From a virus: 64,000 nucleotides of DNA. The translations under genes and the position numbers were made by a program. Shown piece by piece: positions 16,891 to 64,000 of the stretch. Each line of letters begins with the position of its first letter. The first letter of the stretch is position 1. Under the pieces are notes generated by a model that had not been told where the DNA came from, ran no database searches, and saw only the letters and a program-made list of their open reading frames with translations. The stretch covers positions 1-64,000 of the IMG/VR virus record IMGVR_UViG_3300046500_000236; one strand, written 5' to 3'.

Positions 16891-18825
16891 TCAGGCGGCC
16901 GCGGCTTCGTGAGCTGCAGAACGCCATGGGTCGTTCGCACGAGCAAGAGCGGCCATCGGCGGCGGGCTGACGCTGTTGCCGCACATGTGGACCTGCTCGG
17001 TTTTGGTGAACTTACGGCCGTCGGCACCGCGGTCGATGATGTAGTCAGCCGGGAAGCCCTGGGCGCGATACAGCTCATGGGGCTGGAGCATCCGCAGGCA
17101 GATATCCACGATCACATACGGCGTGTCTCTGATGATCACTGTGACCAGGCCGAGCCGATCCTTGGTAGTGATGGTCGGAGCGGGTTGGTCGCAGCCGCTG
17201 ATGTTCTCGGTGCCGTAGTAGCTGATCAGGAACGCGGCAACGCGCAGGGCTCCAGCTTCGTGTTCGGGAGACAGTTTCAGCTCCACCAGCGAGCTTTTAC
17301 CGCCACCGCCAGCTGTGATAGTTAGCGCTGGTTCGTCAATGGCCTGGCCTACGCTGGCGCCGAACTGGCGTTCCATGAAGGCGGTAACCAGACCATGGTG
17401 TGTGCCGCCAGCGCTGACCGTATGCAGCGGATCGGCGACATCACGCGCATCGCAGTTTCCACGCAGATGCACAAGGCTGGCGCTGACCAGCTGCTGTTGG
17501 CTGCCGGTGTTGGTTACCGTGGTCATTGGCTCGCACAAAGGCTTGGCGTCGGTGGTGTTGAATCCGCCGTTCATCTGCGCCATGAAGGCCGATACCAATG
17601 CATGCTTGCCGCCACCGGCAACGACAGTGCCCAGTGGCTGATCAAGGCCAGGTGCGCGCGGCTGCTGGCCGGCACGTTCGCCGTAGCCGGTTTGAATCAA
17701 TGTAGGGCTGATCAGCGTCAGTTCCCCGCGGTTAGCGCAAGTGATCGTGGGCATCGGCTCCGCAGCGTCATTGATCCGGTCGCTGCCCTGGTGGGTGGCT
17801 GGCGCAATGATCGGGCTCGCCATGGCGAATGACCCGCCACGCGGCCATGCCGTGACGGTGCGCAGCGGTTCGTGGGCAGACTGGGCCAATTCACCGGACC
17901 AGTTAGCGATTGGCACGATGAACGGGTCAGCGCTGTCGATGACGAACTTTTTAAGCCCTTTGGCTACGCGGCGCAGGGTTGCCGGGGCCAGGTCTTTTTT
18001 ACGCCCGAAGATGCTCTTGCTCGGCACGGTCCAGTCGATGCAATCCGCGGCGGTGCGCCATTTCTGCTGCCCTTTCTTTGGGTGTTTGGCGTGGGTTGGC
18101 TCCGGCCACACGATCGGCTGACCATCGCACCGGGCGATCATGAATAGACGCTCCCGGCTTGTGGGCGCGCCGAAATCGCATGCCCGGATCACCTTCCACT
18201 CAACGACATAGCCCATTCCTTCCAGCAAAGCCACGAAGCGGCGCCAGGTGCTTCCCCGCTGCTTCGGGTCGGGAATCAGGAACTGCTGTCCCACCGGCAC
18301 AACCTCACCAGGTGCTGCCACATCACCGCTGAGTTTCACCACACGGCCAGTGGCCTTGTCGCGTTTAGCGATCAGTCGGCCCCACTGCAAAATTTGCTTC
18401 ACATTTTCCAGGCTGATTACCCGGGGGCGTTTTTTCCCGGCCCACTTCAAGCCAATCCACGACAGGTTGCGAATCTCGCGCTTGCGCGGTTGACCTCCAG
18501 CGGCCTGGCTGTGGTGAGTGCAGTCGGGGGACATATGAAACCAGCCCACCGGCTTGCCGCCACACTCTTCATCGGGGTCGCCTTCAAACACGTCGGTGGT
18601 GTAGTGGCGTGCTGCCGGGTGGTTGGCGGTGTGCATGCTGATCGCTGCCGGGTTGTGGTTTTTTGCCACTGTCACAGCCCTGCCCAGCCCCATCTCTAGC
18701 CCGGTGCCTGCTCCACCGCCACCACAGAAGAAATCGACAACAATCTCATCGTCTTGCGGGTCAAAGCCGAGTCCGTACTGCGTTTTGAAATCGAAGACGT
18801 GTTTTTTCGGGTGTGCTGAAATCAT
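16891..18825 (-). CDS. DNA (cytosine-5) methyltransferase with expanded, repeated target-recognition region
   Basis: Motifs: I 'FFCGGGGAGTG', IV 'SPDCTHHS', VI 'ENV', VIII 'SRERLF', IX/X 'RAQGFP' and 'GNSVSPP'. About 300 aa between VIII and IX contain seven 'xPxxT(V/I)T...LV' units. Confidence 0.9.
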   Translation of the reverse strand: MISAHPKKHVFDFKTQYGLGFDPQDDEIVVDFFCGGGGAGTGLEMGLGRAVTVAKNHNPAAISMHTANHPAARHYTTDVFEGDPDEECGGKPVGWFHMSPDCTHHSQAAGGQPRKREIRNLSWIGLKWAGKKRPRVISLENVKQILQWGRLIAKRDKATGRVVKLSGDVAAPGEVVPVGQQFLIPDPKQRGSTWRRFVALLEGMGYVVEWKVIRACDFGAPTSRERLFMIARCDGQPIVWPEPTHAKHPKKGQQKWRTAADCIDWTVPSKSIFGRKKDLAPATLRRVAKGLKKFVIDSADPFIVPIANWSGELAQSAHEPLRTVTAWPRGGSFAMASPIIAPATHQGSDRINDAAEPMPTITCANRGELTLISPTLIQTGYGERAGQQPRAPGLDQPLGTVVAGGGKHALVSAFMAQMNGGFNTTDAKPLCEPMTTVTNTGSQQQLVSASLVHLRGNCDARDVADPLHTVSAGGTHHGLVTAFMERQFGASVGQAIDEPALTITAGGGGKSSLVELKLSPEHEAGALRVAAFLISYYGTENISGCDQPAPTITTKDRLGLVTVIIRDTPYVIVDICLRMLQPHELYRAQGFPADYIIDRGADGRKFTKTEQVHMCGNSVSPPPMAALARANDPWRSAAHEAAAA

Positions 18826-27381: not shown

Positions 27382-27439
27382 GGATATCTTTGGCTATCCG
27401 AAGATACCTAAAGTTACTTTTAGGTATCTTGAGATAGCC
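27382..27439. repeat. iteron array (about 6 units GGATATC/GGCTATC/GGTATC, both orientations)
   Basis: GGATATCTTT GGCTATCCGAA GATACCTAAA GTTACTTTTA GGTATCTTGA GATAGCC, in the higB promoter region. Confidence 0.7.
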
Positions 27440-51956: not shown

Positions 51957-53639
51957 TTACGACGCGGCAATCACGTTTTTGATGGTCAGCAGGGCGCAGC
52001 CCAGAGCCGACTGTTTGTGCGGGTTGATTTCGGTCAGGTCGCGTTTGAACAGCGCCGCGCCCGATTTGAGGTCCGAATTCACCGCCAGCGGGATCAGGGT
52101 CAGCGGGACCGCGTCGGAGAAGACGACAGGGTTACGCGCTACCTGGGCGGAACGGCCGACACACAGAATTTCGATGTCGGATTCGGTTTCCTCGACCACG
52201 TACGGGTCGTAGAACACGTCGTATTTGCCCTTGTACTTACCGATGCGGTAGATACCGGCCTTCGCCGCCACACCAGACGACACAAAGTCGGTGGAGTCCA
52301 TCGACAGGAACTGAGCCATACCGATGTCGCCGACGAACCAGAAGGACAGACCGAACTCCATGGTCTGGTTGGCCACTTCCTGGTCGACCTGTGCCGCGAA
52401 CGAGCCGAAGTCACGCCACACGGCCGCACGGGTCATGTTGATCAGGCGACCGCCTGCATCGAAGTCGTAGGTACGGTTGGTGCGTTTGGCCACACGCTTG
52501 AGCTTTTTCAGTGCAGCGATGTAACGCTCGGTCGCGGCCTGGTTGCGTGCAGCCTGTACAGCGATGGTCAGACCATCGGCGCCCAGTTCCGACTGGGTCT
52601 GGCTGCGGCTGTCCGGGGTGACTGACATCAGCACGCGGCTCGGCGCGCAATACAGGCTCCAGCTCTGGGCCTTGGTGTTGATGTACGGGGCCAGATCAGG
52701 TTTGCGCTCGAAGTCGATGAACACCTGAATCTCGACGTAGGCGCTGGCAGGCAGTGCCGGGTTGAAACCTACCGCACCTTCGCCAGTGTCAAGGTTCACG
52801 GTACCGGTGATGGCGTAGGCAGTACCGGCATCACTGACGTATTGACCAGACAGCATCGAGCTCGAAGTGCCGTTTTCGACTTCGACGCCCACGGTGAAAC
52901 CATCGATCACGACGCGGGTACGGCCGCGTAGCAGTGGAACCTGCGCACCGGCGCCGCCGATACGGGCGGTGGCCTTGAAGGTCGCGGCAGTGCGATCGCC
53001 GCCCCAGGTCACGTCCAGAATGCGCTCGGAACGGGTGTAGGCCAGGCCGCCACCGGTGCCGTCCAGGATCTTGCCTTGGGTGTAACCACCGAAGTCAGAA
53101 CCTGCGATCGCGCTGATAATCGCCAGCTTCGATTCGTTAGAGTTCAGATCGGACGGCAGGTAGGCACCGAACGGAATCGCGTCAGCCAGACCGCCAGTGA
53201 TCGCTACGGCGATACGGTTCGGCTGGTGCGACAGCGGGGTGGATGCGGCGTTGGTGCTGATACTGTCGAGGGTGTAGCCGTCCGGCAGCACCTTGGTGCT
53301 CGCGCCGTCAGCCAAGTGCTCGGCTTGGGAGATGACCGCATCGATCAATGCCGCGTCAGGCTGGAAGCCGTTACGCTGCTCATAGCGTGCGATACCGTCG
53401 AGCAGGCTGTGAACAGCCAAGCCCTTGTTGGCGTCACCGTCGATCTTGTCGAGCAGGCGAGCCATGCGGCCAGGCAGCAGGTTAGTAGCGTCTGCTACAG
53501 CGTTCTTGACTGCGCTGACCATGGCACCGTTGGTGCTGTCCAGCATGTTCCCATTTTCACGGGCCGCCCCTACAAGGGCGTCGACCTTGGCCTCGGTTTC
53601 TTCAAGGCCCCGGTCAGGCGCGTAAATGTGTCGTGGCAT
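51957..53639 (-). CDS. major capsid protein candidate
   Basis: 560 aa. The call rests on position (after the giant ORFs, before the acidic scaffold-like ORF) and general character, not on a diagnostic motif. Confidence 0.45.
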   Translation of the reverse strand: MPRHIYAPDRGLEETEAKVDALVGAARENGNMLDSTNGAMVSAVKNAVADATNLLPGRMARLLDKIDGDANKGLAVHSLLDGIARYEQRNGFQPDAALIDAVISQAEHLADGASTKVLPDGYTLDSISTNAASTPLSHQPNRIAVAITGGLADAIPFGAYLPSDLNSNESKLAIISAIAGSDFGGYTQGKILDGTGGGLAYTRSERILDVTWGGDRTAATFKATARIGGAGAQVPLLRGRTRVVIDGFTVGVEVENGTSSSMLSGQYVSDAGTAYAITGTVNLDTGEGAVGFNPALPASAYVEIQVFIDFERKPDLAPYINTKAQSWSLYCAPSRVLMSVTPDSRSQTQSELGADGLTIAVQAARNQAATERYIAALKKLKRVAKRTNRTYDFDAGGRLINMTRAAVWRDFGSFAAQVDQEVANQTMEFGLSFWFVGDIGMAQFLSMDSTDFVSSGVAAKAGIYRIGKYKGKYDVFYDPYVVEETESDIEILCVGRSAQVARNPVVFSDAVPLTLIPLAVNSDLKSGAALFKRDLTEINPHKQSALGCALLTIKNVIAAS

Positions 53640-53712: not shown

Positions 53713-53736
53713 AAACCCCCTTTTTTGGGGGGGTTT
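53713..53736 (-). terminator. stem-loop/attenuator before the capsid-like gene
   Basis: AAACCCCC/GGGGGTTT stem. It shares 'GGGGGGTTTGCGCG' with a similar hairpin at 47144-47167. Confidence 0.4.
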
Positions 53737-53747
53737 GCGCGGTTTTT

Positions 53748-56700
53748 CTATTTCTCAATGACGACCAATCGCGCGTTCGCTCCAGTTTGCGCAAGAAGTG
53801 AGTTGTCTTGGAAAGTGCCCCCTTCCAGCGGCTCGACATCGGCGCCGTGCGAGTCCAGCCAGTCACGGAAGGCGACCGCTTTTTGGTCCTTGCCGAAGAA
53901 AACGCCCTCCCCGGCGATCGCAACCAAAGTGCCGCCGCTGGCCAGCATTCCGAAGGCGCGCATGATGTGGGCCGCATCCTGGCGATTGCTGAATGGCGGG
54001 TTCATCAAGATCGCCGGATAGGGCTCATCAGGCGTGAAGTGGTCAAAGTTGTGATCGACCACGTTGTAGCCCTTGGCGGTCAGGATGTTGCGCAGCTGGT
54101 CGGAGATTTCGATAACGTCGACCTGGCCACCGGCTGCCTTGGCCGCGTCGGCGAGATTGCCGTTGCCGGCGCTGGGCTCCAGTACCCGCATGCCGGGCTG
54201 AATGTGCGCCAGCTGCGCCATGCGCTGGGCAACGTGAGCAGGTGTAGGGAAAAAGTCGATGCCCACCTTCTGGCCGACGATGGCGCGCTCGGCCTTCTTC
54301 ACCGGATCTTCCTGGACTTTCTCCACCAGGTGGGGAATGAGCGCCTGGACTGCGGCGACAAGGCTCTGCGTGTCGGTGATACCCATGCGCGCCAGTCGGT
54401 CCGCTCGGCCGATCGCCTCCATGGGGTCCGTCAGATCCCAGCCTTCTTTCACCGCCTTGAGCTCGGCATAGGCCTTGCGGGTCAGGGCGATATCGGCGGC
54501 ATTCAGGGCAAACCGCTCAGGACCGTTACCCATCTTGACCAGGGCAGCGATCAGGCGGCTGTTCCCCTTGGCGGATTTGCGCGCCAGCGTGTCGGCCGCA
54601 CGGCTGTAACGGTTGCTCCAGGACTCGGGCCGTGGGAAGGCCAGATACTTGAGGTCGTTGTCTTCGAACGCACGCCCGCGGCGCGCATGCTTCGCCATGC
54701 CGTCCAGCTTTTCATCAGCATCGTTGATCGCTCGGCGCATGAGGCGCTGCAGCTCATCGAGCTGGGCGCGACTCGACAGCTTGGTCAGCATGCCCGCGGC
54801 GCCGACCTCGATCGAATCTGCAATACGGTTAAGGGTTTGACCAGCGGCCTTATTGGCTGCGGCTTTCTCCAATGCGTAGCCGGCCTCTCGTGACCGCTTG
54901 GCGGTGTTGGTCTTGCGATCGGCGTTCAAGCTGCCGTCTGCATCATCCACCGCCTTGTTGGCCACCTGGCGCAGTTTCTCCACCTGGTTGGCCAGCGCCT
55001 GCTTGGCGCGATCGGCGGCCAGCCGCTCAGCGGTGGCCACCGCCTCGGCTTGTTGCTCGGCGCTCATCACCACCGGCGTGGGTGCGGCCTGGATGTGTGC
55101 GGTATCGCCACCCAGGTGCTTTTCCCGGATGAAATAGCCGCCGTTCATCTTCCAGGTGTAAGGATCGATCGCTTTGGCCTGCTCGAGCGTCAGATCGGTC
55201 CGGATGATGCCGCGCAGCACCTTTTGCTTTTTGGTTGTGTACTCGATGATTTCCGGCACTGGCGCTACCGGCGCAGGCTCCTCAGTCACAGGTGCAGGCT
55301 GGTCGGTCTCACCGGTGGCTACCGGCTGTGCAGCTGTTCGAGCAGCACGCACTCGCTCAGACAAATGCGCCTCGGAGTACTCCAGCAGGTAGGCGTCGTA
55401 ACCCTCTCGATTATTGGAAACGCGCCCGCCCACCTTCGCCTCGAACTCGGCAACGCGCGCACCCGCCCAGCTGAGAAACCCATGGTTGCCGTCCTCGAAC
55501 GTCGGCAGATCCTCCAGCGTGTTCAGATATGCCTGATACACAGGATTACTAGACACGCCGGCGCCAGTGGTCTGCTCGTAGAACGCGCGTTTCTCTGCTT
55601 CCTGCTCGGCCAGTACCTTGGCCCGCTCAGCAGCATCGGCGGTAGCCTGCTCTGCCGCCTGCTGACGCTCACGCTCGGGCGCTGCCTCGCGATCGGCAGC
55701 ATTCGCTGCATTCTGGGCTTTGCGATCGGCAATCGCTTGTTGTTCGTCCTCGTAGGCCCGCACGTCATCGTCGGCAGCTGGTTCGCCGAACACGGTTTGG
55801 AATTTCTCGGGGCCCCACTCGCGCGCCATGATCCCTTTGAGGTTGGCCAGATCGCGCGCAACACCGGATGTCTCGCCCTGGTAGGTGATCGAAGCTCCAC
55901 CGCCCATTGCGCCGTGCTCATAAACAATGGCGCCGCTGGCCAGCGTCTGCGAACTGGTGGGAATGAACGTGGCCAGGCCTGCCTTGGCCTTGGGCAAAAC
56001 GATGCCGTCAGCAGTCTGGCTGACCTTGAGCCCGTCAAAATACGCGGCGGCGTAGGCTGCCAGCGCTACTGGATCACCGGACACCAGAACGGAACCATTT
56101 TTCTGTGCGGTTACGCCGGTGGCCAGCTCGGCAGCAACGGGTTCAATTTCGGACGGCTCCTCATCTTCAAGGAACAGGTTCAGCACCAGCGCGCCTACTG
56201 CATCGAGCATGACACCGCTGGAATCTTGTTCTACACTGGGGTCGAGCCGATGCCCTGAATTGTGATCAGGGGTCCGTTGGCTCGCTGGGGCGATGTCTTG
56301 CTCTGGTGGATGCCCTGAATTGTGATCAGGGGAACGTCCACTAGAATCGAGCATCGCCTTTTCTTTTGGCGGATCAATCAGCAGGTCGTAATAGAGCTGC
56401 CCGTTAGAGTCCTGTTCGACTACGACGCTTACGCTTATCTGCTCATCAGCCAACGCTACGAGACTTTTGAGGTAAAAGTAGCCAGATACGTCCGGCTTCT
56501 TGTCCTGCTTGTGGTTGTCCTCGCGCAACGCCACTTTCGCGGTTGAAATGATTTGCGCGATCGCATGCAGCAGCTTCAATTTTTTCGGGTTGGCGCTGAA
56601 TGCGATCGTTTCCTTGATGCCACGCTGCCGAATCTCGACCTGCGCCCCCAGCGCCGGGCAGTTGACCATCTGACCGCGCAGCCCTTCCAGGTAGGCCTTG

Positions 56701-56960
56701 GCGGCCGCACGCAATTCCTTCTTGCCCTCGGGCGTGTCAGGAAACTCGCCGAACTCTGTGCCCGTCAGGGCGATCGCGGGCGCCGCGGCGTCAGTGGCCC
56801 CCAGCTGAGCGCGCAGTTCCAGCACGCGGGTAGCCAGGCGCACGCTCATCAGGGGCGTCACGCCCTCCCCGGCCAGCTGCGCCCTCGCTTGCAGCAGCTC
56901 AGTGCTCAGGCGCGCTTGATCGCTCGGCGCCAGTGGGGCCGGTTGGTTCAGGTCAGTCAT
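53748..56960 (-). CDS. giant polyvalent protein with C-terminal amino (N6A/N4C) DNA methyltransferase
   Basis: 1070 aa. The C-terminal part has 'VLEPSAGNGNLA' (SAM motif I) and 'ILMNPPFS' (motif IV). The central part is long and Ala/Glu/Gln-rich. The N-terminus has a duplicated leader motif. Confidence 0.8.
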   Translation of the reverse strand: MTDLNQPAPLAPSDQARLSTELLQARAQLAGEGVTPLMSVRLATRVLELRAQLGATDAAAPAIALTGTEFGEFPDTPEGKKELRAAAKAYLEGLRGQMVNCPALGAQVEIRQRGIKETIAFSANPKKLKLLHAIAQIISTAKVALREDNHKQDKKPDVSGYFYLKSLVALADEQISVSVVVEQDSNGQLYYDLLIDPPKEKAMLDSSGRSPDHNSGHPPEQDIAPASQRTPDHNSGHRLDPSVEQDSSGVMLDAVGALVLNLFLEDEEPSEIEPVAAELATGVTAQKNGSVLVSGDPVALAAYAAAYFDGLKVSQTADGIVLPKAKAGLATFIPTSSQTLASGAIVYEHGAMGGGASITYQGETSGVARDLANLKGIMAREWGPEKFQTVFGEPAADDDVRAYEDEQQAIADRKAQNAANAADREAAPERERQQAAEQATADAAERAKVLAEQEAEKRAFYEQTTGAGVSSNPVYQAYLNTLEDLPTFEDGNHGFLSWAGARVAEFEAKVGGRVSNNREGYDAYLLEYSEAHLSERVRAARTAAQPVATGETDQPAPVTEEPAPVAPVPEIIEYTTKKQKVLRGIIRTDLTLEQAKAIDPYTWKMNGGYFIREKHLGGDTAHIQAAPTPVVMSAEQQAEAVATAERLAADRAKQALANQVEKLRQVANKAVDDADGSLNADRKTNTAKRSREAGYALEKAAANKAAGQTLNRIADSIEVGAAGMLTKLSSRAQLDELQRLMRRAINDADEKLDGMAKHARRGRAFEDNDLKYLAFPRPESWSNRYSRAADTLARKSAKGNSRLIAALVKMGNGPERFALNAADIALTRKAYAELKAVKEGWDLTDPMEAIGRADRLARMGITDTQSLVAAVQALIPHLVEKVQEDPVKKAERAIVGQKVGIDFFPTPAHVAQRMAQLAHIQPGMRVLEPSAGNGNLADAAKAAGGQVDVIEISDQLRNILTAKGYNVVDHNFDHFTPDEPYPAILMNPPFSNRQDAAHIMRAFGMLASGGTLVAIAGEGVFFGKDQKAVAFRDWLDSHGADVEPLEGGTFQDNSLLAQTGANARLVVIEK
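56249..56332. repeat. two exact 24-bp direct repeats 60 bp apart inside the 1070-aa ORF
   Basis: GATGCCCTGAATTGTGATCAGGGG at 56249-56272 and at 56309-56332. In frame they encode '(S/T)PDHNSGH' twice. Each copy holds a CCCTGA/TCAGGG dyad. Confidence 0.85.
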
Positions 56961-59274
56961 GTGTCACCCCAAAAATGGAATCCAGCAAGGCGGTATTGCC
57001 CATCGCTTTCTCAAAGGCTTTTTCGTCGCGCAGCGCCTTGAACACCTGGTCAAAGGCGGCGTTGATGCGTGTGCGCTCCTCGCCCTCGGGATAGGGCTTG
57101 AACGGGGCGCCTAGCTCGGGCATGAAGTGGTATTTGTTGTCGGCCAGGCAGCTCAGGTAGTCGTTCTTGCGGCCGATATCGGACAGCCGATCCTCCAGGT
57201 AGGACTGGAAGGCGCGGGCCGCCATTTCAAAGGGTTCCGACCAGTACTTGCCGGTGACGCCGTCATCGAGCTTTTGCGACTCAAGGAAGAAATTCGAGAC
57301 ACTGGCGCCGGACTTCACCTGTACCTCTGTCGACCCCTCTGGCGAGTAGTAGGCCGCCGCAATTTCGCGCCAGACCTTCTTTTGCTTGAGGTATGGTTTG
57401 GATTGCAGGTTGCGATAGGCCTTGTCGACCGCCAGCACAGCGTCGTGGACGTTCCCGGCGTTCTTGATATCCAGCGCAACCCCGCGCAGGGTTCGCCCGT
57501 CCAGGTTGAACCTGGCCTTTTCCAGCGCCATCGGCGAAAGCTTGATGGTCTCGATCAGGCGCACGCCGCCTGTGGTCAGGGTGTCTTTGAGCCCCTTGAA
57601 GGCATCGCGGATCGGCCCCTGTGGCATCAGCTCGGGATTAGCCGTCGCAAACTCGTCGCGGGCACCCTCCTCGCCTCGCAGCAGGCTGGGCATGATGTTG
57701 TCCAGGGCATGGAGTACTTCATGCCCTAAGCTGCCGCCGCCGTTCATCTTGGTCATGTTGATGACGCGCTCGACGGGGTCATAGGTGGCCATGGCCGCAC
57801 CCTTGCCACCGGTACCGCGCGCGCCGAACGCCATCGCAAGGCGCCCGCCGAAGCTCAAGTGATCGTCATTGACGCCCAGAACGTCGGCCATGTCCTGCAT
57901 GGCGCCTGCGGTCTGCTCTACGTGCCACTTGGCGCTGACAAAGTCGCCCAGTACCCAGTTACCCGACTGCACAGCCCGAAAGCCACACAGGCGTTCCAGA
58001 TCCTTGGTCGACGCCACCGCCACCGGCCGCCCGCCTACGCGCTCGAAGTTCTCGACCACCTTGAGGGTGAAGCTGATTTTCTTCTTGCTGGCGCGCTTGG
58101 GAGCTGCCTTCTCTTTTTCGGTCCAATCCCAGGACTTAGGCTCGCCGTTACGCGCGTTGGCCACATGGCCGGCAAAACTGTCGGAGCCCTGGCTGCCCTT
58201 CTTGCGGTACAGGGTCGCCTTGATGAATCGATCGCCCAAGGAATGCCAGGCACGCGCCTCGGGCGATTGCAGGTTGCGGGCCTTGGCCAGGTCGACAATG
58301 TCCTCACGGTCGGCATAGACGGTGCTGCGCTGCTTGCGCAGGGACTCCGTTTCGTCCTTGGTGGCGGCAATCTCATCGCCCCAGGCTTTCTGAGCGTCCG
58401 CATAGACGCGCTGGGTGTCTGCCACGGCCTGATCGTGCGCAGGATCGATCGACCAGCCACGCTTGCGGCGATTCTCCAGCGCCGACTGCGCCTTGTTGAA
58501 GTCGCTGTATGCGCTTTGCATTGCCTGATACAGCGCATCGCGCGCGTCGTCGATGGCCTTGGAGCGGTCACGCAGGGATTCCAGTTGTGCGGTCAAGCCG
58601 CGGTATTGCTCTGATTCGTCGGCATCGAGCCGCGCGCCGGTCAGCGTTTCCCCGATTTCGGTGAGCGTGCTGGTCACGTCGGCAACACTGCGGGCGGTCT
58701 CCAAGCGCGTACGCAGCGTTTCCAGGCCCAAGGCATAGCTCTGGCGCGCCTCCGGGCTGTCTTCGGCTGGCATGGCGCCTATAGCGGCGTACAGGCGGTC
58801 GATCAGATAGCCCACCTCTGGTGGCATGCCGTCGGCTTGCAAGCCCTCCCAGTCCACCTGGCCGAACAAGTTTGATTTCTTGATCAGCTCACGGGCCTGG
58901 CGCGGGTTCTCCTCGATCGCCTTGAAGTCGATATCACTGGTGCGCAGCATCTGGCCGGCCGCCCGTGCCGCCTTGATGGACGCTGCCGCCTGCTCTTTGC
59001 GCGATCCGGAGATGTAGCCGGTGTCCTTGTAGCGATAGTTCTCGCTGTTCGGGTCATCGCTCAAGCCGTCGTCAGCCTCATCGAGGCGGGCCTGTTCAGG
59101 GTTGATCGACGCCGGGGCCACGCGCACGACGCCGCCCAGCTGGGTGTAGAGCTCCAGCATTTCGGTGGTCACACGGGCTTGCTGCATGGGGTTCAAGGCG
59201 CCGGATTGCAGCTGCTCGCGCAGCGCTAGCATCTGGGTGGCTAGCCGGGCTTGTTCGAGGGGGTTTAGAGCCAT
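56953..59274 (-). CDS. giant protein with zincin-like HExxH motif
   Basis: About 773 aa from the ATG at 59274, which lies just after a terminator U-tract. Contains 'GGSLGHEVLHALD'. Its N-terminal duplicated leader motif is shared with the next ORF. Confidence 0.75.
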   Translation of the reverse strand: MALNPLEQARLATQMLALREQLQSGALNPMQQARVTTEMLELYTQLGGVVRVAPASINPEQARLDEADDGLSDDPNSENYRYKDTGYISGSRKEQAAASIKAARAAGQMLRTSDIDFKAIEENPRQARELIKKSNLFGQVDWEGLQADGMPPEVGYLIDRLYAAIGAMPAEDSPEARQSYALGLETLRTRLETARSVADVTSTLTEIGETLTGARLDADESEQYRGLTAQLESLRDRSKAIDDARDALYQAMQSAYSDFNKAQSALENRRKRGWSIDPAHDQAVADTQRVYADAQKAWGDEIAATKDETESLRKQRSTVYADREDIVDLAKARNLQSPEARAWHSLGDRFIKATLYRKKGSQGSDSFAGHVANARNGEPKSWDWTEKEKAAPKRASKKKISFTLKVVENFERVGGRPVAVASTKDLERLCGFRAVQSGNWVLGDFVSAKWHVEQTAGAMQDMADVLGVNDDHLSFGGRLAMAFGARGTGGKGAAMATYDPVERVINMTKMNGGGSLGHEVLHALDNIMPSLLRGEEGARDEFATANPELMPQGPIRDAFKGLKDTLTTGGVRLIETIKLSPMALEKARFNLDGRTLRGVALDIKNAGNVHDAVLAVDKAYRNLQSKPYLKQKKVWREIAAAYYSPEGSTEVQVKSGASVSNFFLESQKLDDGVTGKYWSEPFEMAARAFQSYLEDRLSDIGRKNDYLSCLADNKYHFMPELGAPFKPYPEGEERTRINAAFDQVFKALRDEKAFEKAMGNTALLDSIFGVTHD

Positions 59275-59275
59275 G

Positions 59276-59307
59276 AAAAAAGGGGCCTGCATAGTGTGCA
59301 AGGCCCC
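59276..59307 (-). terminator. intrinsic terminator between the 59330 gene and the 782-aa ORF
   Basis: GGGGCC/GGCCCC stem. A6 on the plus strand gives U6 immediately before the 59274 ATG on the minus strand. Confidence 0.55.
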
Positions 59308-59329: not shown

Positions 59330-59713
59330 TTACGCGGTGGCGCTTTCCGCGACCGGCGCCGGTGCGAAATCGTCGATCCGGTCGGCCAGAACGTTGGCCA
59401 ACAGGGTCATGGCGTCGTGCTGAATCTGCAGGTGCTGCTGTTTCAGGCTATCCAGACTCTGGAAACGATCGGATTCCAGGAACGCAGCGAGTTTCTGCAC
59501 ACGGTCATCGTTCTGCGCCCGCTCGGCCACAACACGGCGCTCGTGCGGTTGCAGATGGCCGGTGTGTCCCATCGCGACGTGAGTGGCTTCAAAATCCGCT
59601 TTCGGCTTCCAGGTGGTGGTGCCGTTTTCGGCCTTCACGGTGTAGCCGGCCTGGCCGTCCTGGGTGGTCTCCCATGCCAGCACCTGCTGGGTAGTTACAT
59701 ATTCCTGGGTCAT
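59330..59713 (-). CDS. hypothetical protein
   Basis: Start 'MTQEYVTTQQVLAWE' at 59713. Confidence 0.6.
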   Translation of the reverse strand: MTQEYVTTQQVLAWETTQDGQAGYTVKAENGTTTWKPKADFEATHVAMGHTGHLQPHERRVVAERAQNDDRVQKLAAFLESDRFQSLDSLKQQHLQIQHDAMTLLANVLADRIDDFAPAPVAESATA

Positions 59714-63175: not shown

Positions 63176-64000
63176 TTACAGCACGTCTGCGGTTACCTTC
63201 AAGGCGTAATCGCGGTAAGCATTTGAGGCATCGGCAAACAGATCCTTGAGCTCTGCCTCGCCCCACTGGACATAGATAGCCTCAAGGCGCGCCAGCACGT
63301 CGGCCGGGCTCCCCAGATCGGCTGTGCCGCTAATCAGGCTGTCGAGATACGCCTTCGCTGCTTTCAATTGATCATCCTCGTCTGGCTCCGGGGGTGTCGA
63401 TGGTTCAGGCTCGGCGATAGGGGCCGGCACTGGTGGGGCCGCGAACATATCGCCTTGGTCGATCGCAAACAAGCCCTCGCCGTATTCCTGTTCGAGCTTA
63501 CGGTTCGCAGCGCCGACGATATCGGTAAAGCTGGCCGGCTCATCACCGAACAGGCCCGCTGTCTGCTTGCGGGCGTTCTCGCTCTCCACGAACTGCGCCA
63601 TAGCCTTGAACGCGGTCCCCATGCGCTTGGCGCTGCGATTGTTCTGCTGGATGAACATCGCCATGGCCGCTACGGCCGGATCTGTGCCTCCGAACATGTC
63701 GCCCTGGCGCAGGAACTCATCCAGGCCCAGCCCAGAGTCCTTGGCCTGGCGCAGCACATTGGTGGCGCCGATGATCGCGTTCACGGCCTCCTGGTTAAGC
63801 GACAGCTCGACAGAATCGGTCACCTTGCCGCCCACGTCCTCGGCGCCGACGCGATCCAGCTCCTTGGCTCGCATGAAGTCTGGCGCAGCGCTGTTCAGGG
63901 CGGCCACGATGTTGGCAATCTCAGGCTTAGCCACGTCTGCCGTCATTTCCAGCAAGCGGTCATCCGAGTAGGCGCCAGCGAATAGAGCGGCCTGCAGGCG
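63176..64000 (-). CDS. C-terminal part of a larger protein continuing beyond the right edge
   Basis: The frame stays open upstream of the ORF-track TTG start all the way to position 64000. Ala-rich, with 'GDMF' repeats and a Pro/Glu linker. Confidence 0.65.
   Translation of the reverse strand, partial: RLQAALFAGAYSDDRLLEMTADVAKPEIANIVAALNSAAPDFMRAKELDRVGAEDVGGKVTDSVELSLNQEAVNAIIGATNVLRQAKDSGLGLDEFLRQGDMFGGTDPAVAAMAMFIQQNNRSAKRMGTAFKAMAQFVESENARKQTAGLFGDEPASFTDIVGAANRKLEQEYGEGLFAIDQGDMFAAPPVPAPIAEPEPSTPPEPDEDDQLKAAKAYLDSLISGTADLGSPADVLARLEAIYVQWGEAELKDLFADASNAYRDYALKVTADVL

What the first reader, a model, noticed from the sequence alone, without database searches (positions are those of the whole stretch)
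53748..59274. Two overlapping giant ORFs ahead of the capsid gene: candidate virion-delivered polyvalent anti-restriction proteins sharing a duplicated N-terminal leader
Both ORFs lie in the head module and overlap by 8 nt. The 1070-aa ORF ends in an amino-methyltransferase: 'VLEPSAGNGNLA' (SAM binding) and 'ILMNPPFS' (catalytic NPPF). A long Ala/Glu-rich helical region and several unassigned globular segments precede it. The upstream ORF of about 773 aa carries a zincin-type 'HEVLH'. Both N-termini consist of two copies of a ~20-aa motif, P(L/M)xQAR(L/V)xTxxLxLRxQL. In the 1070-aa protein the copies are 'SDQARLSTELLQARAQL' and 'PLMSVRLATRVLELRAQL'. In the other they are 'PLEQARLATQMLALREQL' and 'PMQQARVTTEMLELYTQL'. 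P1 packages the giant MTase-containing DarB to protect incoming DNA from type I restriction, and multi-domain 'polyvalent' proteins of phages and conjugative elements are thought to be co-injected effectors. I infer that the shared leader is a capsid-targeting or ejection signal. I do not recognise it as a described motif. A third large ORF (63176 to beyond 64000) may belong to the same set.
Basis: partly seen in the sequence, partly recalled or inferred. Interest (0 to 1): 0.7.

Follow-up and report, generated by a model that had tools for sequence, protein, structure and literature searches.

The report
Shared loading tag on phage effectors
Two large multi-enzyme proteins of a P1-like Pseudomonas phage-plasmid begin with the same undescribed two-helix tag, which also heads many relatives of phage P1's packaged anti-restriction proteins and is most likely the signal that loads such proteins into the phage head.

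Summary
ORF A (53748-56960, minus strand, 1070 aa) and ORF B (56953-59274, minus strand, 773 aa) overlap by 8 nt (ATGACTGA). They lie just upstream of a P1 gp23-type capsid gene in a Pseudomonas P1-like phage-plasmid.

Both are polyvalent proteins. A carries Pfam LPD3 plus a C-terminal SAM methyltransferase with conserved VLEPSAGNG and NPPF motifs. B carries a CLCA_X-type predicted zincin (HEVLHALD) plus Pfam LPD1.

The shared leader is a separately conserved module of about 47 aa, made of two homologous helices of about 20 aa. It is kept in all orthologues while the domain behind it varies. It occurs in at least 201 protein clusters and is N-terminal in 116 of the best 150.

Carriers include DarB homologues, proteins with the P1 DdrB peptidase region, small DdrA-like proteins and other polyvalent proteins. 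The leader matches the N-terminus of phage D6 DdrA and the PHROG DdrA model. No Pfam or NCBIfam model covers it.

In every context examined, DarA_N- or Hdf-type head proteins are encoded nearby. Head loading is therefore the best explanation, but it remains an inference. Nothing here shows packaging, methylation or proteolysis.

The parts
56953..59274 (-). ORF B, 773 aa. Order of parts: leader, invariant motif, long coiled-coil hairpin, CLCA_X zincin-like domain, LPD1.
59131..59271 (-). Leader of B (aa 2-48). Two helices, aa 5-23 and 29-45, followed by a disordered linker at aa 46-70.
   Evidence: The leader HMM hits at 8e-19. AF2 places helices at 5-23 and 29-45 with block pLDDT 79-92.
58993..59064 (-). 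LSDDPNSENYRYKDTGYISGSRKE (B aa 71-94). This is a dense run of invariant residues. Its function is unknown.
   Evidence: D73, D74, P75, Y80, R81, D84, G86, R92 and K93 are invariant in 67 orthologues.
58273..58623 (-). Long antiparallel helical hairpin (B aa 218-334).
   Evidence: AF2 places helices at 218-272 and 278-334 with pLDDT above 90. This element dominated the full-length Foldseek hits.
57646..58011 (-). CLCA_X-type predicted zincin domain (B aa 422-543). HEVLHALD lies at 57700-57723.
   Evidence: NCBIfam NF041907 scores 2.9e-26, below the whole-protein cutoff. The HExxH residues are nearly invariant and D525 is invariant. The family is described in PMC3650047.
57022..57267 (-). LPD1 domain (B aa 670-751).
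   Evidence: Pfam PF18796, 5e-21, 75 bits against a cutoff of 27.
53748..56960 (-). ORF A, 1070 aa. Order of parts: leader, LPD3, Pro/His-rich linker, unassigned domain, Ala/Glu-rich helix, conserved pre-MTase region, SAM methyltransferase.
56796..56936 (-). Leader of A (aa 9-55).
   Evidence: The leader HMM hits at 7e-14. The HMM built from B-type leaders only hits at 4e-10.
56388..56726 (-). LPD3 domain (A aa 79-191).
   Evidence: Pfam PF18798, 3e-19.
53751..54992 (-). Methyltransferase module (A aa 657-1070). The catalytic core is aa 850-1070. Motif I VLEPSAGNGNLA lies at 54150-54185 and motif IV ILMNPPFS at 53988-54011.
   Evidence: phrog_15406 at 2.5e-95 and phrog_11358 at 3e-97. tblastn to Vibrio, Shewanella and Aeromonas phage proteins covers aa 657-1070.
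63176..64000 (-). C-terminal 274 aa of a third polyvalent protein that runs off the window. It is a DdrB-type ParB region. The full-length relative has InPase, DarA_N and ddrB-ParB domains and no leader.
   Evidence: It is 90.5% identical to the C-terminus of the 1187-aa protein of L002 and 40% identical to P1 DdrB aa 255-435 at E 1e-35.
59330..59713 (-). Context: the gene just upstream of B has a Sequestin (PF21825) domain. [quoted passage not shown]
   Evidence: Pfam 9e-15. The orthologue in L002 is called from the corresponding MTQEY start. The family function is taken from bioRxiv 10.1101/2025.07.12.664507.
51957..53639 (-). Context: major capsid protein of the P1 gp23 type, just downstream of A.
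   Evidence: tblastn gives 38% identity to the phage Rb1 capsid protein and 27% to P1 gp23. phrog_1014 scores 7e-105.

Best explanation
ORFs A and B are late-expressed cargo proteins of a P1-type phage head. They are the local version of P1's Dar (defence against restriction) internal proteins.

Each protein has three parts: an N-terminal two-helix tag of about 47 aa, a flexible linker, and a string of effector domains. A carries LPD3 and an amino-methyltransferase. B carries a predicted CLCA_X zincin and LPD1.

The proposed mechanism has four steps, all inferred:
1. The tag docks the protein to the DarA_N/Hdf-type platform on the inner face of the procapsid.
2. The cargo is enclosed during assembly.
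3. The cargo leaves with the DNA at infection.
4. It then acts on host defences or targets before any phage gene is expressed.

What is shown: the domain content, the existence of the tag, its internal duplication, its modularity and breadth, its presence in DdrA and in DarB homologues, and its constant co-occurrence with DarA_N/Hdf genes. What is inferred: that the tag is the loading signal, what it binds, that the proteins are ejected, and what the enzymes modify.
For: 1. The chassis is P1-like.
- The window has a gp23-type capsid protein, a sheath protein, a PmgG-like protein, terminase, an integrase-family recombinase, a large DNA methyltransferase, a replication initiator and a ParA-like ORF whose orthologue in L002 carries ParA-family Pfam domains.
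- B is 81% identical to a protein of the 94.7-kb P. putida plasmid pKF715C.
- pKF715C encodes P1-like portal and protease, an Hdf/DarA_N protein and an InPase-DarA_N-ddrB-ParB protein.

2. The tag is a module.
- It is conserved in about 115 B orthologues down to 43% identity.
- It is conserved in A orthologues, where the next domain may be LPD3, a different globular domain or a coiled coil.

3. The tag is widespread and mostly N-terminal.
- It occurs in 201 clusters among 1.84 billion representatives.
- It is N-terminal in 116 of the best 150.

4. The carriers are Dar-type proteins.
- DarB homologues of 1509-2240 aa carry the tag ahead of the region that aligns with P1 DarB from about aa 47. 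This is the position of P1 DarB's experimentally defined 30-aa capsid targeting sequence (PMC9024508).
- Proteins of about 620 aa carry the tag plus the C-terminal peptidase region of P1 DdrB.
- Small DdrA-like proteins also carry it.

5. There is a link to DdrA, a known P1 virion protein.
- Phage D6 DdrA hits the tag HMM at 1e-6 over residues 2-45.
- phrog_1855 (DdrA-like) hits tag carriers at 2e-9 and 5e-7 through its N-terminal 55-86 positions.
- A profile-profile comparison with P1, JK004 and D6 DdrA gives 91% probability and E 1e-6.
- Phage Rb1 has an unannotated tag ORF in the ddrA position.

6. DarA_N/Hdf genes lie close by in L002, L008, L010, L011, Rb1, P1, D6 and pKF715C. In P1, DarA and Hdf line the inner capsid, and all other Dar proteins need them for packaging (PMC12810830).

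7. pKF715C has exactly two tag ORFs, the A and B orthologues. In L010 the same slot upstream of the capsid gene holds two tag proteins with different cargo: a DdrB-type peptidase, and ART plus a methyltransferase.

8. AF2 models the tag as two helices followed by a disordered linker.

9. The neighbouring gene is a Sequestin-family anti-defence gene.
Against: - There is no direct evidence that A or B is in virions.
- P1 DarB's own targeting sequence does not resemble the tag (hhalign P 0.17). The argument from DarB is therefore positional only.
- P1 DdrA on its own matches weakly (P 0.0014; E 0.05). The DdrA link rests on D6 DdrA and on family profiles.
- 34 of the best 150 occurrences are internal.
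- The third polyvalent protein, with DarA_N and DdrB-ParB domains, has no tag. The tag is therefore not needed by every presumed head protein.
- No P1-type late promoter was found near B.
- The tag is a short amphipathic helical repeat, a sequence type prone to convergent similarity.
Confidence: 0.6

Rival explanations
1. The tag is an oligomerisation module. Its helical hairpins bundle, so tag-bearing proteins (A with B, or DdrA-like proteins with DarB- or DdrB-like proteins) form hetero-complexes. Some other part of the complex then determines head targeting, if there is any.
For: - The tag is two amphipathic helices.
- Genomes often carry two tag proteins side by side.
- By eye, tags within one genome resemble each other more than tags of other lineages. 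The window pair are 44% identical. The L010 pair share the ERIKLSGQLA style.
- The small DdrA-like proteins are little more than a tag plus a short helical domain. That would suit an adaptor.
Against: - Rb1, D6 and the sequenced parts of L008 and L011 each show only one tag-bearing ORF, so there is no partner tag.
- This reading is compatible with the best explanation rather than exclusive of it.
Confidence: 0.18
2. The tag is itself an effector or a post-injection signal. It might bind a host restriction enzyme, or guide the protein through the tail and membrane, and not load it into the head.
For: - P1 DdrA is listed as an antagonist of EcoA restriction (PMC9024508 table).
- An N-terminal position would suit N-terminus-first exit.
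Against: - The tag is attached to many unrelated enzymes: methyltransferase, ART, two peptidase types and a helicase.
- It always co-occurs with phage DarA_N/Hdf head proteins, across the phages examined. Those with a named host infect Pseudomonas, Xanthomonas, Escherichia and Cronobacter.
- A defence-specific inhibitor would not be expected to be this generic.
Confidence: 0.12
3. A and B are cytoplasmic proteins that are not packaged. They might, for example, methylate progeny DNA or process proteins late in infection or in the lysogen. The tag would then be a regulatory or stability element.
For: - There are no virion data.
- The genes lie next to plasmid-maintenance and anti-defence genes.
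- No late promoter was detected.
Against: - LPD1 and LPD3 architectures are characteristic of transferred polyvalent proteins (PMC5512222).
- Homologues of the methyltransferase module are annotated as a virion structural protein in Aeromonas phage phiARM81mr.
- BFVD structural neighbours of B include a protein with a MuF head-morphogenesis domain.
- The genes are positioned just upstream of the capsid gene in several lineages.
Confidence: 0.07

Closest known systems
Capsid targeting sequence of phage P1 DarB (Gonzales et al. 2022, PMC9024508)
   Same: Both are short N-terminal segments of a giant Dar-type internal head protein in a P1-type head. In DarB homologues of other phages, the tag occupies the stretch ahead of the DarB body.
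   Different: There is no detectable sequence similarity to P1 DarB residues 1-46 (hhalign P 0.17). The tag is longer, about 47 aa, and is an internal duplication. It is shared by many protein families, whereas the P1 authors found no consensus among Dar N-termini.
P1/D6 DdrA (phrog_1855, 'DdrA-like anti-restriction protein')
   Same: The N-terminal 45 or so residues of D6 DdrA are a canonical tag (E 1e-6). The PHROG model hits tag carriers. DdrA is a virion protein whose packaging depends on DarA and Hdf.
   Different: DdrA is a small protein of about 120 aa. In A and B only its N-terminal module is present, fused to large enzymatic cargo. The C-terminal half of DdrA is unrelated to A, to B and to the common 'HWAELE' small-protein C-terminus.
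Polyvalent proteins of phages and conjugative elements (Iyer et al. 2017, PMC5512222)
   Same: They share LPD1, LPD3, methyltransferase, metallopeptidase, InPase, DarA_N and ddrB-ParB domains, shuffled among large proteins encoded next to phage structural genes.
   Different: Term searches of that paper found 0 occurrences of 'DdrA' and of 'N-terminal helical', and none of the passages shown mention a common N-terminal tag. A has a methyltransferase without the usual helicase partner. B's peptidase is of the CLCA_X type. The DdrB/ArdC-type peptidase region instead matched the ~620-aa tag carriers; B showed no blastp match to P1 DdrB.
Capsid targeting sequence of phage T4 internal proteins (as summarised in PMC9024508)
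   Same: Both have the same logic: an N-terminal peptide directs otherwise unrelated proteins into the procapsid for co-injection.
   Different: The T4 signal belongs to a different head type. P1-type phages have no identified separate scaffold protein. Whether the tag is cleaved was not tested. By eye, I saw no conserved cleavage motif after it.
CLCA_X family of predicted zincins (Lenart et al. 2013, PMC3650047)
   Same: B aa 422-543 matches the family model at 2.9e-26. It has the HExxH motif plus a nearby conserved Asp. The family is reported mostly from phages and plasmids, often in proteins longer than 500 aa.
   Different: The score is below the NCBIfam whole-protein cutoff (92 against 260 bits). 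The Asp lies 3 residues after the second His here, not 4. Foldseek found no zincin structure in the PDB. No member of the family has been tested biochemically, as far as the paper says.

Membership tests
Polyvalent proteins (Iyer 2017) | Contains LPD or effector domains that are specific to polyvalent proteins. | tested here: met
   LPD3 scores 69.7 bits and LPD1 scores 75 bits, against a Pfam cutoff of 27 for each.
Polyvalent proteins (Iyer 2017) | Several unrelated domains in one large polypeptide, with the domains shuffled between relatives. | tested here: met
   A orthologues differ in the domain behind the leader. Architectures of the 150 carriers are.
Polyvalent proteins (Iyer 2017) | Encoded with phage structural or packaging genes, or with conjugation genes. 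| tested here: met
   The genes lie directly upstream of the gp23-type capsid and sheath genes. The arrangement is the same in L002, L010 and pKF715C.
Polyvalent proteins (Iyer 2017) | Delivered into the recipient cell together with the DNA. | not testable with these tools
   This needs virion proteomics and injection assays.
P1 DarB orthologue (ORF A) | N6-adenine methyltransferase fused to an SF2/SNF2 helicase, about 2200 aa. | tested here: not met
   A has no helicase domain. Its methyltransferase matches DarB only at E 0.007 and 23% identity. True DarB homologues that carry the tag exist elsewhere.
P1 DdrB (third ORF, 63176 to beyond 64000) | DdrB-type ParB domain. | tested here: met
   It is 40% identical to P1 DdrB aa 255-435 at E 1e-35. 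Pfam ddrB-ParB is present in the orthologues.
DdrA family (phrog_1855), N-terminal module | Sequence match to the N-terminal half of DdrA. | tested here: inconclusive
   The link is transitive. D6 DdrA hits the tag HMM at 1e-6. phrog_1855 hits other carriers at 2e-9 to 1e-3. The profile-profile comparison gives 91% probability. However, the window's own leaders do not reach E 0.01 against phrog_1855, and P1 DdrA alone gives P 0.0014.
Zincin metallopeptidase (CLCA_X) | Conserved HExxH plus a third acidic ligand. | tested here: met
   H518, E519 and H522 are conserved in at least 90% of 67 orthologues, and D525 is invariant.
Zincin metallopeptidase (CLCA_X) | Match to the family model. | tested here: inconclusive
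   NF041907 scores E 2.9e-26, but 92 bits is below the curated cutoff of 260 bits.
Zincin metallopeptidase (CLCA_X) | Zincin fold (beta-sheet followed by the active-site helix). | tested here: inconclusive
   In the AF2 model, HExxH sits at the start of helix 516-533, after two strands. Foldseek against the PDB gave no hit better than E 0.24.
Class I SAM-dependent amino-methyltransferase | Motif I (GxG loop) followed by motif IV (N/D)PP(F/Y/W). | tested here: met
   VLEPSAGNG is present in 44 of 46 homologues and NPPF in 41 of 46. PHROG methyltransferase families score about 1e-95. Pfam Methyltransf_23 scores 20.9 bits, below its cutoff of 27.
Class I SAM-dependent amino-methyltransferase | Substrate is DNA adenine. 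| not testable with these tools
   From my own knowledge, NPPF also occurs in rRNA and protein amino-methyltransferases, and the Pfam MTS and erm-type hits are weak. Methylome or enzyme assays are needed.
Phage capsid targeting sequence | N-terminal, portable between cargo proteins. | tested here: met
   116 of 150 occurrences are N-terminal, and the cargo domains are unrelated to each other.
Phage capsid targeting sequence | Necessary and sufficient for encapsidation. | not testable with these tools
   This needs deletion and reporter-fusion experiments.

The most novel reading that the evidence does not exclude
The tag is a general, portable head-loading signal of P1-like and other Dar-type phages. 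It is a DdrA-N module that docks on the DarA_N/Hdf lattice inside the capsid. Evolution has used it to swap effector cargo freely: methyltransferases, ADP-ribosyltransferases, two kinds of peptidase, DarB helicase-methylases and LPD domains. If so, one short sequence would predict which proteins of these phages are injected, and it could be used to load foreign proteins into them.
Probability: 0.45. Interest if true: 0.75.

Novelty: new variant of a known kind. Interest (0 to 1): 0.62.

Why it matters
Polyvalent proteins are assumed to be injected with phage DNA. Outside MuF fusions and the 30-residue signal of P1 DarB, it is not known what gets them into the head.

A conserved tag shared by DdrA, DarB homologues, DdrB-type peptidases and LPD polyvalents would give three things:
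- A sequence rule for predicting the injected proteome of a large group of phages and phage-plasmids.
- An explanation for how effector domains can be shuffled without losing delivery.
- A candidate handle for loading engineered proteins into phage heads for delivery into Pseudomonas and related bacteria.

It also gives P1 DdrA a testable role.

Tried and rejected
- Megablast of the region against phage genomes gave no match.
- Sequence searches of A, B and the B family profile against PDB chains gave nothing significant.
- Foldseek of full-length B against the PDB returned only coiled-coil look-alikes such as dynein stalk, BAR domains and pore-forming toxins. I rejected these as artefacts of the long hairpin.
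- Foldseek of the cropped C-terminal half against the PDB gave no hit better than E 0.24.
- The P1 DarB N-terminus, and the N-termini of P1 Ulx, DdrB, DarA and Hdf, were compared with the tag. No similarity was found (P 0.17-0.65).
- The tag HMM was run against all ORFs of the window. Only A and B hit.
- No tag was found in the third polyvalent protein's relative in L002 or in the DarB-like protein of Rb1 (E 5.7).
- A P1-type late promoter (AAGTNACTT plus a -10 element) was sought upstream of B and A. None was found there; the only site is at 27401-27430.
- The C-terminal half of DdrA does not align with the C-terminus of the small tag proteins.
- tblastn of a small tag protein (P0180) against isolated phages gave no match.
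- Cluster look-up gave no organism names for the carriers, which are mostly metagenomic.
- Piya et al. 2017 (PMC6011833) is not held, so the order of Dar incorporation is cited second-hand.
- I looked by eye for a conserved T4-type LxE cleavage site after the tag and saw none. This was not a formal test.

Full report
**What is there**

On the minus strand, ORF B and ORF A lie head to tail. B is 56953-59274 and 773 aa. A is 53748-56960 and 1070 aa. They overlap by 8 nt, ATGACTGA. B's reading frame extends to a TTG at 59301, but every orthologue starts at MALNP, so I take the ATG at 59274 as the start. The third ORF (63176 upward) has no in-frame stop before the window edge and does run off it.

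**The element**

The window belongs to a P1-like phage-plasmid of Pseudomonas.
- The ORF just downstream of A is a capsid protein of the P1 gp23 type. It is 38% identical to the capsid protein of Xanthomonas phage Rb1 and 27% identical to P1 gp23.
- It is followed by a sheath gene.
- Elsewhere in the window are a PmgG-like protein, terminase subunits, a helicase, a large DNA methyltransferase, a replication initiator and an integrase. There is also a ParA-like ORF whose orthologue in L002 carries ParA-family Pfam domains.
- B has full-length orthologues on non-mobilizable Pseudomonas plasmids of 81-114 kb. The closest is pKF715C of P. putida, at 81% identity. Many metagenomic contigs of 80-95 kb also carry orthologues.
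- pKF715C encodes P1-like portal and protease, an Hdf/DarA_N protein, and an InPase-DarA_N-ddrB-ParB polyvalent protein.
- The third ORF of the window is the C-terminus of that last protein. It is 90.5% identical to the relative in L002 and 40% identical to P1 DdrB.

Genuine homologues of the P1 Dar proteins are therefore part of this element. 'Head module' is only loosely right. As in P1, the capsid gene sits between the sheath gene and the par region. The P1-type portal and protease genes were found only in pKF715C; the window itself was scanned only for its larger ORFs.

**Domains**

ORF A contains, in order:
- the leader (aa 9-55);
- Pfam LPD3 (aa 79-191, 3e-19);
- a Pro/His-rich linker with a PDHNSGH repeat;
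- an unassigned domain shared with relatives;
- an Ala/Glu-rich helix;
- a module at aa 657-1070 that ends in a class I SAM methyltransferase.

PHROG DNA-methyltransferase families hit the last module at about 1e-95. Vibrio, Shewanella and Aeromonas phage proteins align over it; one is annotated as a virion structural protein. Motif I is kept in 44 of 46 homologues and NPPF in 41 of 46. The substrate cannot be decided from sequence. A is not a DarB orthologue, because it has no helicase and only a weak match to DarB's methyltransferase.

ORF B contains, in order:
- the leader (aa 2-48);
- a disordered linker;
- an invariant stretch, LSDDPNSxNYRYxDTGYIxGSRKE;
- a long helical hairpin;
- a domain at aa 422-543 that matches the CLCA_X family at 2.9e-26;
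- Pfam LPD1 (5e-21).

CLCA_X was described as a predicted zincin family of phages and plasmids, with an HExxH motif and a nearby Asp (PMC3650047). In B the HExxH residues are nearly invariant and D525 is invariant. The AF2 models are good: mean pLDDT 85.7 for the whole protein and 83.0 for the C-terminal half. Even so, Foldseek found no PDB zincin. It found only other phage polyvalent proteins and a MuF-domain protein in BFVD. The zincin assignment is therefore supported at family level and unconfirmed at fold level.

**The leader is real and is a module**

- Profiles built from B-type leaders of other genomes find the window's A at 4e-10, and profiles from A-type leaders find B at 1e-12. No other window ORF scores.
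- The two halves are homologous to each other: 96.6% probability, E 5.5e-10, with shuffled controls at P 0.005 or worse.
- The family consensus of each half is S-P-(L/I)-E-R-x-(R/K)-L-(S/T)-x-x-L-x-x-L-x-x-x-L. The whole module ends in L-G.
- The leader is kept in about 115 B orthologues down to 43% identity.
- It is also kept in A orthologues, whose next domain differs from one relative to another.
- The window's two leaders are 44% identical in protein and 56% in DNA, so they are an old pair.
- AF2 models the leader as two helices followed by a disordered linker.

**Breadth**

A profile of 63 leader segments was searched against 1.84 billion representative proteins. It found 201 clusters at E of 0.001 or better. 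Among the best 150, the leader starts within the first 35 residues in 116. The carriers fall into groups:
- B-type and A-type polyvalent proteins.
- True DarB homologues of 1509-2240 aa, with N6_Mtase and SNF2 domains. In these the leader precedes the part that aligns with P1 DarB from about residue 47.
- Proteins of about 620 aa that carry the C-terminal peptidase region of P1 DdrB.
- Many small proteins of 105-160 aa.
- Fusions in which the unit of leader plus small C-terminal domain follows a DdrB-ParB or LPD3 domain.

Most of the internal occurrences are of this last kind, or are B-type proteins with an extra N-terminal domain.

**Link to DdrA and to the DarB signal**

- Phage D6 DdrA sits between darA and ddrB, as in P1. 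It matches the leader profile at 1e-6 over residues 2-45.
- The PHROG model for DdrA hits leader carriers at 2e-9, 5e-7 and 1e-3 through its N-terminal positions.
- A profile of small leader proteins aligns with a profile of P1, JK004 and D6 DdrA at 91% probability and E 1e-6, over the leader only.
- P1 DdrA alone is a weak match (P 0.0014, against 0.17 or more for the other Dar proteins and 0.34 for its reversed sequence).
- Phage Rb1 has an unannotated leader ORF. It lies between an InPase-DarA_N protein and a protein annotated as a peptidase, which is followed by a DarB-like protein. This is the ddrA position.
- DdrA is a known P1 virion protein. DarA and Hdf line the inner capsid surface, and the other Dar proteins depend on them for packaging (PMC12810830).
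- The first 30 residues of P1 DarB suffice to load a reporter into P1 heads. The authors of that work found no consensus among Dar N-termini (PMC9024508).
- The leader does not resemble that P1 DarB segment. The argument from DarB is positional only.

**Context**

Every neighbourhood I examined has DarA_N- or Hdf-type genes close to the leader gene. These were L002, L008, L010, L011, Rb1, P1, D6 and pKF715C. The complete pKF715C genome has exactly two leader ORFs. In L010 the same slot upstream of a gp23-type capsid gene holds two leader proteins with other cargo: a DdrB-type peptidase, and an ADP-ribosyltransferase plus a methyltransferase. The gene just upstream of B carries a Sequestin domain, from a family shown to sponge the Thoeris signal.

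**Interpretation**

The best reading is that A and B are head-packaged effectors and that the leader is their loading tag, probably docking on the DarA_N/Hdf platform. I put this at about 0.6.

The main rival is that the tag is an oligomerisation module and is not itself the targeting determinant. The two readings are not exclusive. Less likely readings are that the tag is itself an effector or an exit signal, or that the proteins are not packaged at all.

Several points argue against the best reading:
- There are no virion data.
- Some occurrences of the tag are internal.
- The third polyvalent protein has no tag.
- The tag does not resemble P1 DarB's signal.
- Short helical repeats are prone to convergent similarity.

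**Novelty**

The proteins are new members of the known polyvalent and Dar kinds. No Pfam or NCBIfam model covers the tag. Term searches of the polyvalent-protein paper found no mention of DdrA or of an N-terminal helical element. My other literature searches found no description of it either. It is present only implicitly, at the N-termini of phrog_1855 and phrog_29900. I rate it a new variant of a known kind, a phage capsid-targeting signal, pending experiment.

Noticed in passing
window 59330-59713 (-): The gene immediately upstream of ORF B has a C-terminal Sequestin domain (PF21825, E 9e-15). Members of this family were shown to sponge 3'cADPR and cancel type I Thoeris defence. A, B and this gene therefore form an anti-defence neighbourhood between the par region and the capsid gene.
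   Followed up: partly
window 27401-27430: There is a palindromic P1-type late-promoter-like element, AAGTTACTT. The -22 boxes of P1 LPdar and LPpro are AAGTTACTT and AAGTGACTA. It is flanked on both strands by TAGGTATCTT. The pattern has 2 hits, both strands of one site, against 0 expected. It may be a divergent late promoter.
   Followed up: no
window 58993-59064 (-), ORF B aa 71-94: LSDDPNSxNYRYxDTGYIxGSRKE is a dense run of invariant residues (9 of 24 positions invariant in 67 orthologues). In the AF2 model this stretch has only low-to-moderate confidence and little secondary structure. Its function is unknown. It might be a binding or processing motif.
   Followed up: no
window 53716-53732 (-): A terminator-like hairpin, CCCCCCAAAAAAGGGGG followed by TTTT, lies between the stop of ORF A and the start of the capsid gene. 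It is a consensus match only.
   Followed up: no
L004:4513-4986 (+) (Xanthomonas phage Rb1, PQ569993): This unannotated ORF encodes a small leader-bearing, DdrA-like protein (HMM E 3e-12; small-family HMM 2e-44). It lies between the annotated 'internal head protein' (InPase-DarA_N) and the 'metallo-peptidase'.
   Followed up: yes
L001:5500-7782 (+) (phage Rb1 'capsid assembly protein'): By eye, this 760-aa protein (possibly the portal; not tested) has a C-terminal extension resembling the N-terminal region of P0050 and P0052, proteins that carry PF18809. That would be an effector domain fused to a head-assembly protein. I did not test the similarity formally.
   Followed up: no
L010:10001-15622 (metagenomic relative): The slot upstream of the gp23-type capsid gene holds a different pair of leader proteins. 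One is a DdrB-type peptidase protein. The other is an ART-PolyVal plus methyltransferase protein with an internal leader. The slot looks like a variable effector cassette.
   Followed up: partly
window 56250-56330 (-), ORF A aa 211-237: There is a direct repeat, PDHNSGH twice, in the Pro/His-rich linker after LPD3. The linker is absent or different in many A orthologues.
   Followed up: no
L013:33857-43408 (pKF715C, NZ_AP015032): The related phage-plasmid carries a Tn3-family transposase, a recombinase and a mer mercury-resistance operon inserted among its phage genes.
   Followed up: no
window 16891-18825 (-): This 644-aa protein matches several PHROG DNA-methyltransferase families over both halves (3.6e-102 and 4.6e-97). 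It is reminiscent of the P1 Dmt double methyltransferase. It is a second, non-packaged candidate for self-methylation.
   Followed up: no
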